The notes below the pieces were generated by a model. That model had not been told where the DNA came from, ran no database searches, and was given only the letters and a program-made list of their open reading frames with translations. A stretch of DNA of 24,154 nucleotides from a virus (taxonomy: Duplodnaviria > Heunggongvirae > Uroviricota > Caudoviricetes): IMG/VR virus record IMGVR_UViG_2684622510_000004; one strand, given 5' to 3'. Below are positions 17,685-18,331 of the stretch, in pieces; the stretch's first letter is position 1; each line of letters starts with the position of its first letter. Made by a program: the position numbers and the translations under genes.

Positions 17685-17708
17685 AAAAAAGCGCCCTATA
17701 GGACGCTT
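17685..17708 (-). terminator. terminator-like hairpin downstream of the antisense gene (gcgccc-tata-ggacgc, U-run on the minus strand)
   Basis: Imperfect stem with an A6 run on the plus strand at 17685-17690. Confidence 0.35.
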
Positions 17709-17721
17709 CGCTCTTTAACAA
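17709..17721 (+). promoter_or_regulatory. boxA-like motif CGCTCTTTAACAA
   Basis: Exact 13-mer matching the NusB/NusE boxA consensus of lambdoid nut sites and rrn operons, about 190 nt downstream of the pL candidate. No convincing boxB hairpin or N gene found. Confidence 0.35.
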
Positions 17722-17739
17722 TCTGGATATCCACAACAG
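17721..17739. repeat. left inverted-repeat copy (atctggatatccacaacag) flanking the antisense gene
   Basis: Its reverse complement matches 18281-18299 at 17 of 19 positions. Confidence 0.55.
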
Positions 17740-17746
17740 TAGCAAT

Positions 17747-18238
17747 CTACAGATTGCCGTTAAGTTTTCTGGCCAACTCCTCAATGGATGGAGGCGATAC
17801 GTAATCCGGATTTTTATTCATCAGAAACTTATTTTCACAGTGGAGGCACCTGCTTTTATGAAAAAGCTCATCTTCGCTAACCGGGAATGGTTGAAGTATC
17901 GATACTATCTTTTGTCCAAAACATTTTGGGCAAAGATGCATGGTTATGCTGCCACCGTTCACGATTACCTCCTTCGAGTATACAAAAGTACCCGACTCAA
18001 GTTGGTTAAGGATATAGCCTTCCGTCTGAGCCTCAAAGTTTTCGAATTCTGCAATTTTAGCTTTGAGAGAAGCATTTATTTCTTGATAAGAGCCCACCAG
18101 TTCAACGAGAGACACGCATTCGCGCTGAATAGACGCAAGCTTTGAGTTCAGCTCACCAATAGCCGCATTTACTTCAGCTTGAGTTTTTGCCTCGTTCATT
18201 AGTTTTGCAATCTGGGCGATTTCACGAATAGCCGTCAT
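17747..18238 (-). CDS. hypothetical coiled-coil protein with C-terminal CxxC-x19-CxxC zinc ribbon
   Basis: 163-aa product from ATG 18238 (MTAIREIAQIAKLMNEAKTQ...HLCPKCFGQ...CLHCENKF...). Antisense to the early-left operon, with its own downstream hairpin. The upstream in-frame extension to 18526 only translates repeat DNA. Confidence 0.5.
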   Translation of the reverse strand: MTAIREIAQIAKLMNEAKTQAEVNAAIGELNSKLASIQRECVSLVELVGSYQEINASLKAKIAEFENFEAQTEGYILNQLESGTFVYSKEVIVNGGSITMHLCPKCFGQKIVSILQPFPVSEDELFHKSRCLHCENKFLMNKNPDYVSPPSIEELARKLNGNL

Positions 18239-18276
18239 TGCTGCCGTTAATTCAGCGATCACATTGAATACTCTTA

Positions 18277-18331
18277 TTGTTGTTGGGGATATCCAGATTA
18301 ACCGAATCCTTGTTGTTGGGGAATAACTAGG
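18277..18331. repeat. two direct copies of ttgttgttgggga(t/a)at (right arm of the inverted repeat) upstream of the antisense gene
   Basis: 18277-18299 and 18308-18325 read directly; probably operator/promoter elements or relic TIRs. Confidence 0.5.

What the first reader, a model, noticed from the sequence alone, without database searches (positions are those of the whole stretch)
17685..18331. Antisense coiled-coil/zinc-ribbon gene flanked by inverted repeats in the rexAB/sieB position next to cI
A 163-aa ORF on the minus strand (17747-18238) lies immediately downstream of cI/OL, antisense to the early-left transcript. This is where lambda carries rexAB and P22 carries sieB. It is bracketed by imperfect inverted repeats (17721-17739 versus 18281-18299, 17/19 match, core GGATATCC), with a second direct copy at 18308-18325, and has its own terminator-like hairpin. 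The product has a long coiled-coil N-terminus and a C-terminal CxxC-x19-CxxC ribbon. The repeats could be operators of an autoregulated exclusion gene or relic ends of a small inserted element.
Basis: partly seen in the sequence, partly recalled or inferred. Interest (0 to 1): 0.65.

Follow-up and report, generated by a model that had tools for sequence, protein, structure and literature searches.

The report
Rip1-like anti-phage pore gene cassette
A small prophage gene that sits backwards in the early lytic operon next to the repressor is an unannotated, distant relative of Rip1, a recently solved protein that kills an infected cell by forming a membrane pore around the invading phage's terminase ring. 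The gene rides in a conserved cassette, bracketed by an inverted repeat, that many enterobacterial prophages reuse for other unknown genes.

Summary
The minus-strand gene is 17747-18262: it starts at GTG and encodes 171 aa, not 163. The inverted repeat is 17720-17738 versus 18281-18299 and matches at 18 of 19 positions. The cysteine motif is CxxC-x24-CxxC.

The protein has no Pfam, NCBIfam or PADLOC match, but it is a full-length remote homologue of Rip1, 'ring interacting pore 1' (PDB 9oox, phage HK446 Rip1 bound to T6 small terminase). A family profile scores E=5.8e-19, and Foldseek gives probability 1.00 at 24-28% identity. Rip1 is a one-protein abortive defence that assembles on oligomeric small terminase or portal rings into a membrane pore.

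Like HK446 rip1, HK620 hkaP, JBD30 gp30 and lambda sieB, the gene lies antisense inside a lytic operon.

The repeats are not classic operators or transposon ends. They lie inside a portable 685-bp unit (17678-18362) made of a conserved leader with a predicted promoter, the cargo, and an intrinsic terminator. That unit recurs across at least eight genera, in four operon contexts, with at least five cargo families. The arms keep their complementarity across cargo types. Their function is unresolved. The best guess is a long-range RNA helix in the lytic read-through transcript.

Verdict: a new member of a known kind, of moderate interest.

The parts
17678..17709 (-). Intrinsic terminator of the cassette: hairpin GAAGCGTCCTATAGGGCGCTTT followed by a T-run. 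It is conserved together with the cassette in other genera.
   Evidence: stem 17709-17688, 9 pairs; GTTAAAGAGCGAAGCGTCC...GGGCGCTTTTT follows the cargo in Salmonella, Citrobacter, Kosakonia, Enterobacter and others.
17720..17738 (.). Left (3'-side) arm of the inverted repeat, AATCTGGATATCCACAACA. It lies between the stop codon and the terminator.
17747..18262 (-). Rip1-family gene, 171 aa, GTG start. N-terminal helices (residues 3-24 and 28-79) followed by a C-terminal beta-rich domain with CxxC-x24-CxxC.
   Evidence: phrog_1244, E=1.8e-59; profile against 9oox, E=5.8e-19.
18271..18275 (-). Shine-Dalgarno AAGAG, 8 nt upstream of the GTG start.
   Evidence: Sequence; the GAG is conserved in the leader alignment.
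18281..18299 (.). Right (5'-side) arm of the inverted repeat, AATCTGGATATCCCCAACA on the minus strand. It overlaps the predicted -10 element, discriminator and transcription start.
18295..18323 (-). Predicted cassette promoter: -35 TTCCCC (18323-18318), 17-nt spacer, -10 TAATCT (18300-18295). This is an inference, not a mapped start site.
   Evidence: The key positions are invariant in the leader alignment. The equivalent hexamer is TATTAT in the 786/877-type cassettes and TATAAT in the 833/924-type. The consensus scan found no strong sigma-70 site.
18277..18322 (-). Two direct copies of the CA-rich motif CCCCAACAACAA (minus strand), seen on the plus strand as TTGTTGTTGGGGA at 18277-18289 and 18310-18322. 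One copy lies in the predicted 5' UTR and the other overlaps the -35 and spacer.
18324..18362 (-). Upstream part of the conserved leader, including the palindrome GCCTG...CAGGC (18358-18362 and 18340-18344) and the CCAC...GTGG hairpin. Conservation across genera starts sharply at GCCTG.
17474..17511 (+). OL/PL operator repeats TTGCRCATCTCGCA (two copies), which place the cassette downstream of PL. Context only, not part of the cassette.
   Evidence: D5; a related site at 16692-16706 in the cI-cro gap.

Best explanation
The gene at 17747-18262 (minus strand) encodes a divergent member of the Rip1 ('ring interacting pore 1') family. Rip1 is a prophage-encoded, single-protein abortive-infection defence.

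By analogy with the solved HK446 Rip1-T6 small terminase complex, the protein would be made in the lysogen and stay harmless on its own. When a superinfecting phage makes its ring-shaped small terminase (or portal), the C-terminal four-cysteine domain would dock around that ring. The N-terminal amphipathic helices would then be organised into a roughly 12-mer membrane pore. The cell is permeabilised before progeny mature.

The gene is delivered as a portable 'moron' cassette (17678-18362): conserved leader with its own weak promoter, CA-rich 5' UTR, cargo, intrinsic terminator. The cassette is always inserted antisense in a lytic operon. I infer that this lets the prophage's own PL or PR transcription silence the gene when the prophage itself goes lytic.

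The 13-19 bp inverted repeat is an internal part of this cassette. Its arms are kept complementary. It most plausibly forms a long-range helix that loops out the cassette in the lytic read-through RNA. That step is the least certain.

Shown here: homology, fold, conserved residues, cassette anatomy, mobility, antisense placement, and complementarity of the arms. Inferred: the trigger, pore formation, the defence phenotype, the promoter, and the role of the repeat.
For: Homology to Rip1.
- phmmer against PDB: 9oox_L 'ring interacting pore 1 (Rip1)', E=1.7e-7, residues 8-150 against 22-159.
- A profile of 32 family members hits the same chain at E=5.8e-19 over nearly the full length, with all four Cys and the SILQ motif aligned. 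It is the only PDB hit.
- BLASTP against HK446_037: 27% identity, E=1e-11.
- AF2 model, pLDDT 89.8. The top two Foldseek PDB hits are 9oox_L and 9oox_M at probability 1.00; the next hit is at E=0.15.
- Residues invariant across the window protein, HK446 Rip1, HK620 HkaP, JBD30 gp30 and three homologues of the window family: Q46, L66, Y83, V94, Y95, C111, C114, I122, L123, C139, C142.
- N-terminal helix with hydrophobic moment up to 0.52.
- What Rip1 does is taken from the review PMC13434031, section 5, and PMC13601566.
- Family size: 2,561 cluster representatives at E<=1e-3, almost all 145-180 aa.

Antisense embedding in lytic operons.
- The window.
- Citrobacter, between cI and xis.
- Salmonella, in the PR operon beside cro.
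- Edwardsiella, between N and exo.
- O157 Rac-like prophage.
- HK446, HK630 and HK620, between N and cIII.
- JBD30, antisense between the two flanking late-region genes JBD30_029 and _031 (the review, places Pseudomonas rip1 between the terminase subunit genes).

Cassette.
- The leader, arms and terminator are conserved across Citrobacter, Salmonella, Kosakonia, Scandinavium, Symbiopectobacterium, Trabulsiella, Enterobacter and Edwardsiella, while the protein falls to 45-60% identity.
- The same platform carries at least five cargo families.
- Both-sided changes that keep complementarity occur at arm positions 6, 8, 10, 11 and 13, and the 786-type has a separate GTAACCCTC pair.
- Arm pairing is predicted at about P>=0.8 (over at least the outer 7-8 bp) in 8 of 9 cargo types on the lytic-sense strand, against 5 of 9 on the cargo-sense strand.
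- The minimum-free-energy and centroid folds of the window RNA contain the helix, z=-4.1.

Prevalence: 647 of 5,426 complete E. coli genomes carry the cassette.
Against: - Identity to any tested Rip1 is only 24-28%, so the trigger specificity, and even the pore mechanism, could differ.
- No phenotype, expression or oligomer data exist for this subfamily in anything I could read. The primary paper (Nature 651:1060) is not held.
- PADLOC (2023) has no model and gave no hit.
- No consensus sigma-70 promoter was found. The promoter I propose matches only 6 of 12 consensus positions.
- RNAalifold found no covarying structure in the leader.
- G-U wobble evidence on which strand pairs is mixed.
- Both arms are also conserved in sequence within the Rip1 cargo type. 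That fits a protein-binding site as well as a helix.
- The HK446 and HK620 rip1 genes lack this repeat and leader, so the repeat is not needed for Rip1 function as such.
Confidence: 0.72

Rival explanations
1. The protein is a true Rip1 homologue, but it serves the prophage's own life cycle rather than defence against other phages. For example, it could time lysis or check packaging by binding the prophage's own terminase or portal.
For: Rip1 binds packaging rings that every tailed phage, including the host prophage, makes. The gene is embedded in lytic operons.
Against: The gene is antisense to those operons in all seven contexts. That argues for expression in the lysogen and silencing during the prophage's own lytic growth. 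It has its own terminator and a conserved leader. It is present or absent among otherwise near-identical prophages, as an accessory moron would be. Characterised family members protect against superinfection.
Confidence: 0.1
2. A coiled-coil, zinc-ribbon DNA-binding regulator that autoregulates through the GGATATCC-containing repeats acting as operators.
For: Each arm in the window contains a short palindrome (TGGATATCCA). One arm overlaps the predicted promoter.
Against: The only structural and sequence relatives are Rip1 pore proteins. The same arms, leader and terminator flank unrelated cargo: the ECs1072 family, an LprI-like secreted protein, and a 2-TM protein. The binding factor therefore cannot be the cargo. 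The 658-type arms (AATCTGGATGACT) are not palindromic.
Confidence: 0.03
3. The inverted repeats are the terminal repeats of a small transposable element, or the recombination sites of an invertible (phase-variable) segment.
For: Cargo swaps between SfIV-type and window-type prophages break exactly at the arms. The unit has moved between operon contexts.
Against: The conserved mobile unit extends beyond both arms, by about 63 nt of leader upstream and about 40 nt of terminator downstream. There are no target-site duplications and no transposase. All 12 window-type viral loci, and every other locus examined, have the same orientation. The 13-mer occurs only at the two arms in the window. The arm sequence differs between cargo types, which does not fit one recombinase.
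Confidence: 0.05
4. The plus-strand ORF 17840-18145 (101 aa) is the real gene.
For: It is an open frame of 101 codons in the sense direction of PL.
Against: It has no Pfam match. A similar shadow ORF appears opposite the 60%-identical 683-type gene, as expected for the reverse frame of a helical protein. The minus frame has 121 homologues, a PHROG, a confident fold and a PDB relative.
Confidence: 0.01

Closest known systems
Rip1 (ring interacting pore 1): Escherichia phage HK446 gp037 (PDB 9oox) and Pseudomonas phage JBD30 gp30. Source: Patel et al. 2026, Nature 651:1060, known to me only through the review PMC13434031.
   Same: Size (164 versus 171 aa). Alignable over the full length. N-terminal long helices plus a C-terminal four-cysteine beta domain. 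Invariant SILQ, VY and Cys residues. Encoded by a prophage as a single gene. Antisense inside a lytic operon.
   Different: Only 24-28% identical. It forms a separate subfamily: 18 cluster representatives at E<=1e-30, against 2,561 in the superfamily. It has a longer C-terminal tail with a predicted extra helix (residues 160-168). It is carried in a conserved leader, inverted-repeat and terminator cassette that the HK446 and HK620 genes lack. Its trigger and phenotype are untested.
HK620 hkaP / HK630 HkaP, annotated 'putative superinfection exclusion protein' in AF335538.
   Same: A Rip1-family homologue (28% identity, tblastn E=5e-13). It lies antisense between N/hkaQ and cIII in the PL operon.
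   Different: A different subfamily with different flanks. It has no shared leader or repeat.
Lambda SieB (and P22 SieB).
   Same: Expressed from the prophage, accessory, and placed antisense within the PL operon just beyond N. An abortive or exclusion type of role (from my own knowledge of the literature).
   Different: No sequence relationship: hhalign probability 0.08%. From general knowledge, SieB is an integral membrane protein with a different trigger.
Lambda RexAB.
   Same: A prophage-expressed abortive-infection system next to cI that acts on the membrane.
   Different: rexAB lies between cI and OL on the cI strand and is co-transcribed with cI. The window gene lies beyond OL/PL on the opposite strand. 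It is one gene, not two, and is unrelated in sequence.
Phage 'morons' in Hendrix's sense: an accessory gene with its own promoter and terminator, inserted between genes of an operon. The concept is from my own knowledge.
   Same: Its own terminator and a predicted promoter. Presence or absence among close relatives. Sharp boundaries.
   Different: Here the promoter-leader and terminator are themselves a conserved, reusable platform shared by at least five unrelated cargo families, with a complementarity-preserving inverted repeat. I am not aware that this has been described, but I could not test that against the literature.

Membership tests
Rip1 (ring interacting pore 1) family | Significant full-length sequence similarity to an experimentally characterised Rip1. 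| tested here: met
   phmmer E=1.7e-7. Family profile E=5.8e-19, profile positions 5-156 against chain residues 15-160 of 164. BLASTP E=1e-11 against HK446_037.
Rip1 (ring interacting pore 1) family | Same fold: long N-terminal helices and a C-terminal ring-contacting domain. | tested here: met
   AF2 pLDDT 89.8. Foldseek against PDB: 9oox_L and 9oox_M at probability 1.00, target-normalised TM 0.53-0.71, and no other hit below E=0.1.
Rip1 (ring interacting pore 1) family | Conserved CxxC...CxxC and SILQ core in the C-terminal domain. | tested here: met
   C111, C114, C139, C142, I122 and L123 are invariant across the window protein, HK446, HK620, JBD30 and enterobacterial homologues.
Rip1 (ring interacting pore 1) family | N-terminal amphipathic helix (the pore-forming part). 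| tested here: met
   Helix predicted at residues 3-24. Eisenberg hydrophobic moment 0.42-0.52 for residues 4-30. This is a sequence-level test only.
Rip1 (ring interacting pore 1) family | Single-gene system carried by a prophage. | tested here: met
   It is flanked by cI, cro, yfdP/Q/R and int. Homologues sit in prophage early regions. There is no conserved partner gene.
Rip1 (ring interacting pore 1) family | Assembles as a roughly 12-mer ring on oligomeric small terminase or portal and forms a membrane pore. | not testable with these tools
   Needs multimer modelling or biochemistry. Described for HK446 Rip1 in PMC13434031.
Rip1 (ring interacting pore 1) family | Protects against superinfecting phage by abortive infection and is non-toxic alone. 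| not testable with these tools
   No experimental data for this subfamily were found. The primary paper is not held.
Lambda/P22 SieB | Sequence homology to SieB. | tested here: not met
   hhalign of the family profile against lambda SieB: probability 0.08%.
Lambda/P22 SieB | Antisense placement inside the PL operon, downstream of OL/PL. | tested here: met
   Lambda sieB at 34482-35036 (+) against N and PL (-). The window gene is (-) against PL-sense yfdP/Q/R (+).
Lambda RexAB-type module | Located between cI and OL and co-transcribed with cI; two genes. | tested here: not met
   The gene lies beyond the cI terminator (17439-17456) and the OL repeats (17474-17511), on the opposite strand, and is a single gene.
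Transposable element with terminal inverted repeats (MITE/IS-like) | The inverted repeats mark the ends of the mobile unit; target duplication; dispersed copies. | tested here: not met
   Conservation across contexts extends beyond both arms. The 13-mer occurs only at the two arms in the window.
Invertible DNA switch (hix/gix-type) | The segment is found in both orientations between the inverted sites. | tested here: not met
   12 of 12 window-type viral loci, and all the genomic loci, have one orientation. Read-level heterogeneity was not examined.
Phage moron | Own terminator and promoter; present or absent between neighbouring operon genes in related phages. | tested here: inconclusive
   The terminator and the presence/absence pattern are met. 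The promoter is only predicted: TTCCCC-N17-TAATCT, with TATTAT or TATAAT at the same place in other cargo types. The consensus scan was negative.

The most novel reading that the evidence does not exclude
The leader, inverted repeat and terminator unit is an undescribed, reusable 'moron expression platform' of enterobacterial temperate phages. Its two arms would pair in the prophage's own lytic read-through RNA, looping out and silencing or insulating the antisense defence cassette. That would act as a built-in self-immunity switch, keeping a terminase-triggered suicide pore from firing during the prophage's own induction. The platform could also be used as a search handle for new defence genes: the ECs1072 family, the LprI-like secreted protein, and the Pro-rich micropeptide with its 2-TM protein.
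Probability: 0.2. Interest if true: 0.7.

Novelty: new member of a known kind. Interest (0 to 1): 0.45.

Why it matters
About one in eight complete E. coli genomes (647 of 5,426) carries this cassette, including O157:H7. It is annotated only as 'hypothetical protein' and is invisible to the 2023 PADLOC models.

Recognising it as a Rip1-family gene predicts a concrete phenotype: terminase- or portal-triggered abortive infection. That is relevant to phage therapy and phage typing, and to understanding why some coliphages fail on certain lysogens.

The conserved cassette offers two testable ideas. The first concerns how a prophage avoids triggering its own ring-activated pore, through antisense embedding plus the arm helix. 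The second is a sequence handle (leader and terminator) that already points to four further cargo families of unknown function sitting in the same defence-type slot.

Tried and rejected
- Pfam, NCBIfam and PADLOC scans of the protein gave only noise: coiled-coil hits below cut-off, and RpoP zinc ribbon at E=0.02.
- Pfam and PADLOC scans of the alternative cargo proteins gave nothing decisive: a weak LprI match, and a ClpX zinc finger for a small SfII-type ORF.
- The sigma-70 consensus scan of 17400-18750 found no promoter.
- The Rfam gathering scan found nothing in the cassette.
- RNAalifold on 16 leaders gave a weak structure with no compensatory pairs. I therefore dropped the idea of a structured 5' UTR element, although two hand-spotted stems (CCAC/GTGG becoming CCGC/GCGG in Edwardsiella; GGATCC/GGATTC becoming GGTTCC/GGAAT) remain unexplained.
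- G-U wobble counting to decide which strand pairs was ambiguous.
- I looked for the same repeat around the HK446, HK620 and HK630 rip1 genes and the Edwardsiella homologue and found none.
- I tested for inversion of the segment and found none.
- I tested homology to lambda SieB and found none.
- The primary Rip1 paper could not be read. A literature search on HkaP, HK446 and Rip1 returned only unrelated RIP1-kinase papers.
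Full report
**What is in the sequence**

The window is the early region of an SfII/SfIV/SfV/CPS-53-like lambdoid prophage of E. coli.
- cI is at 16727-17419 (+), cro at 16369-16629 (-), and ymfL/cII-like at 15825-16376 (-).
- The PL-sense genes yfdP, yfdQ (DUF2303) and yfdR follow from 18732 onward (+), ending in integrase and a tRNA.
- cI ends in a terminator at 17439-17456.
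- Two operator-like repeats, TTGCRCATCTCGCA, follow at 17474-17511, with a related site in the cI-cro gap.

The target ORF is on the minus strand and ends at 17747. Its N-terminus should be moved to the GTG at 18262, giving 171 aa. The residues MIAELxAAM upstream of the first ATG are conserved in homologues from Salmonella, Citrobacter, Kosakonia, Trabulsiella, Cedecea, Arsenophonus and others. A conserved GAG Shine-Dalgarno sits 8-9 nt upstream. PGAP makes the same call.

The inverted repeat is 17720-17738 versus 18281-18299, matching at 18 of 19 positions. The direct repeat TTGTTGTTGGGGA is at 18277 and 18310. The terminator is at 17709-17688 on the minus strand. The cysteine motif is CxxC-x24-CxxC.

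**What the gene is**

Curated family libraries are silent. The only hit is PHROG 1244, of unknown function. A sequence search of PDB, however, hits 9oox chain L, 'ring interacting pore 1 (Rip1)', at E=1.7e-7. A profile of 32 diverse family members raises this to E=5.8e-19 over essentially the whole protein. The four cysteines and the SILQ motif are aligned, and it is the only PDB hit.

An AF2 model (pLDDT 89.8) has two long N-terminal helices and a beta-rich C-terminal domain. Foldseek returns 9oox_L and 9oox_M at probability 1.00 and nothing else below E=0.1. The entry is titled 'Escherichia phage HK446 Rip1 in complex with the Enterobacteria phage T6 small terminase'. Pairwise identity to HK446 Rip1, HK620 HkaP and JBD30 gp30 is 24-28%, with eleven invariant residues after the initiator Met.

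According to the review PMC13434031, which summarises Patel et al., Nature 651:1060 (2026; not held):
- Rip1 is a prophage-encoded single protein that is harmless alone.
- Twelve copies assemble around an 11-mer small terminase ring. Portal mutants escape in Pseudomonas phages.
- The N-terminal amphipathic helices then form a pore, and the infected cell lyses prematurely.

PMC13601566 likewise lists Rip1 as a sensor of the small terminase subunit. The window protein has the matching sequence-level features, including an amphipathic N-terminal helix with hydrophobic moment up to 0.52. The superfamily is large: 2,561 representatives at 50% identity with E<=1e-3. The window's own subfamily is small, with 18 representatives at E<=1e-30. 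I therefore file it as a new, divergent member of the Rip1 family. The mechanism is inferred by homology, not shown.

**Position and orientation**

Lambda rexAB lies between cI and OL on the cI strand. Lambda sieB lies beyond OL/PL and N, on the strand opposite to PL. The window gene is of the sieB type, but it has no sequence relationship to SieB.

Every Rip1-family gene I examined is antisense to the lytic operon around it:
- HK446, HK630 and HK620, between N and cIII.
- JBD30, antisense between its two flanking late-region genes; the review places Pseudomonas rip1 between the terminase subunit genes.
- The Citrobacter homologue, between cI and xis.
- The Salmonella homologue, in the PR operon beside cro.
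- The Edwardsiella homologue, between N and exo.
- An O157:H7 Rac-like prophage.

I infer that this arrangement lets the prophage's own early or late transcription shut the gene off during its own lytic growth. That would matter for a sensor of packaging rings which the prophage also makes. This is inference.

**The repeats and the cassette**

Pairwise comparison shows the slot is variable. SfIV-type prophages lose homology exactly at the arms (17726 and 18279) and carry different cargo. SfII-type prophages lose it further out, at 17678 and 18333. A survey of 100 viral contigs anchored on the flanks found at least nine slot types.

The Rip1-like gene in other genera, and in other operon contexts, still carries the same three elements:
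- the roughly 105-nt upstream leader;
- the same arms;
- the same terminator, GTTAAAGAGCGAAGCGTCC...GGGCGCTTTTT.

Conservation begins sharply at GCCTG and ends after the T-run. The leader is better conserved than the protein: mean column identity is 82% in leaders from loci whose proteins are down to 45-60% identical. The mobile unit is therefore 17678-18362, and the arms are internal to it. That rules out transposon ends.

A second scan, keyed on the leader, found the platform with at least five cargo families:
- Rip1-like proteins (22 distinct proteins in 38 loci);
- the ECs1072 family;
- an LprI/DUF1311-like secreted protein;
- a 26-29 aa proline-rich peptide followed by a 2-TM protein of about 160 aa;
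- a 167-aa unknown.

Because the cargo differs, the arms cannot be operators for the cargo protein. In the 658-type they are not palindromic (AATCTGGATGACT). No inverted copies were seen.

**A predicted promoter**

Because conservation starts within about 20 nt of divergent neighbouring start codons, the promoter must lie inside the leader. The invariant positions fit TTCCCC-N17-TAATCT, at 18323-18318 and 18300-18295. The hexamer at the same place is TATTAT in the 786/877-type cassettes and TATAAT in the 833/924-type. That supports a -10 element. The match to consensus is weak, and the simple scan missed it. If it is right, transcription starts around 18288-18290, inside the right arm. The two CA-rich CCCCAACAACAA copies would then fall in the -35/spacer region and in the 5' UTR.

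**What the arms do**

This is unresolved. Facts:
- Complementarity is near-perfect over 13 bp in 41 distinct arm pairs.
- Both-sided changes that preserve pairing occur at positions 6, 8, 10, 11 and 13.
- The 786-type has an independent pair, GTAACCCTC/GAGGGTTAC.

Thermodynamic folding predicts the arm helix in the minimum-free-energy and centroid structures of the window RNA, z=-4.1. The predicted pairing probability is about 0.8 or higher (over at least the outer 7-8 bp) in 8 of 9 cargo types on the lytic-sense strand, against 5 of 9 on the cargo-sense strand. With the predicted start site, the 658 and 786 arm complementarity would lie mostly upstream of the cargo transcript. Both arms are fully present only in the lytic read-through RNA.

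My best guess, at about 40% among the explanations for the repeat, is a long-range helix in the PL/PR read-through transcript that loops out the antisense cassette. It could serve processing, insulation or silencing. The alternatives are 5'-3' end pairing of the cargo mRNA, a protein-binding site present twice, or a recombination-prone boundary. G-U evidence is mixed, and RNAalifold gave no support for a structured leader.

**Comparison with what is known, and novelty**

The gene is a new member of a known kind, the Rip1 family published in 2026. It is common: 647 of 5,426 complete E. coli genomes carry it. It is unannotated.

The cassette platform with its complementarity-preserving arms may be new. 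I could not test that claim against the literature beyond negative Rfam results, and its function is not established.

Interest is moderate. A specialist would not be surprised by another Rip1 homologue in a sieB-like slot. The reusable platform and the antisense self-silencing idea do give concrete experiments, and they point to several candidate defence genes.

Noticed in passing
window 18374-18597 (+), overlapping 18535-18589: The conserved non-coding stretch between the cassette and yfdP matches Rfam STnc100 (RF02076) over the full model at 43.4 bits (gathering score 47, E=9e-8). Its 3' part weakly resembles DicF. It is probably a PL-sense sRNA processed from the early-left transcript. PGAP's 'frameshifted hypothetical protein' here (about 18407-18717) is therefore probably not a gene.
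   Followed up: partly
window 18595-18619 / 18659-18683: A 25-nt inverted repeat (84% complementary, 39-nt loop) lies just upstream of yfdP. A similar hairpin is present in the Citrobacter locus L128 (3689-3706 / 3760-3777). Its function is unknown.
   Followed up: no
viral loci L008/L096 (790-type), L057/L118 (658-type), L024/L006 (786/877-type), L123/L011 (833/924-type), L204 (710-type): The same leader, arm and terminator platform carries other cargo: the ECs1072 family (144-151 aa); a signal-peptide LprI/DUF1311-like protein (170-175 aa); a 26-29 aa proline-rich peptide followed by a 2-TM protein of about 160 aa; and a 167-aa unknown. None has a PADLOC hit. All are candidates for exclusion or defence functions.
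   Followed up: partly
window 18340-18344 / 18358-18362 (minus-strand GCCTG...CAGGC): An invariant 5-bp palindrome with a 13-17 nt spacer sits at the upstream edge of the conserved leader, centred about 63 nt upstream of the predicted start site. It overlaps a CCAC/GTGG stem that is CCGC/GCGG in Edwardsiella. It could be an activator site or an RNA or DNA structure.
   Followed up: partly
L004 (SfIV) 3100-3160; 790-type cassettes: In the SfIV-type cassette the left arm directly precedes the Shine-Dalgarno and start codon of a PL-sense 68-aa gene (phrog_1744) that converges on the ECs1072-family gene. In that cargo type, then, both arms precede inward-pointing genes.
   Followed up: no
window 3819-4017 (-): Full-length Rfam match to the sRNA family IS009 (RF02111, 225 bits), inside the prophage's late or tail region.
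   Followed up: no
window 22714-22786 (-), next to integrase 21533-22696 (+): A tRNA gene lies immediately beyond the integrase. It is the likely attachment site and the end of the prophage.
   Followed up: no
L068/L027 (734/706-type slots, SfII-like): SfII-type slots, which lack the platform, encode a 73-aa protein with a ClpX-type C4 zinc finger (PF06689, E=1.4e-10) at the start of the PL transcript.
   Followed up: no
L133 (Edwardsiella) 4001-6279: The Edwardsiella Rip1-like gene keeps the leader but lacks the 3' arm and the shared terminator. Instead it has a 19-nt perfect-ish hairpin at 4511-4581, followed by two more same-strand genes (228 and 175 aa) antisense to N. This may be a larger moron cluster.
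   Followed up: no
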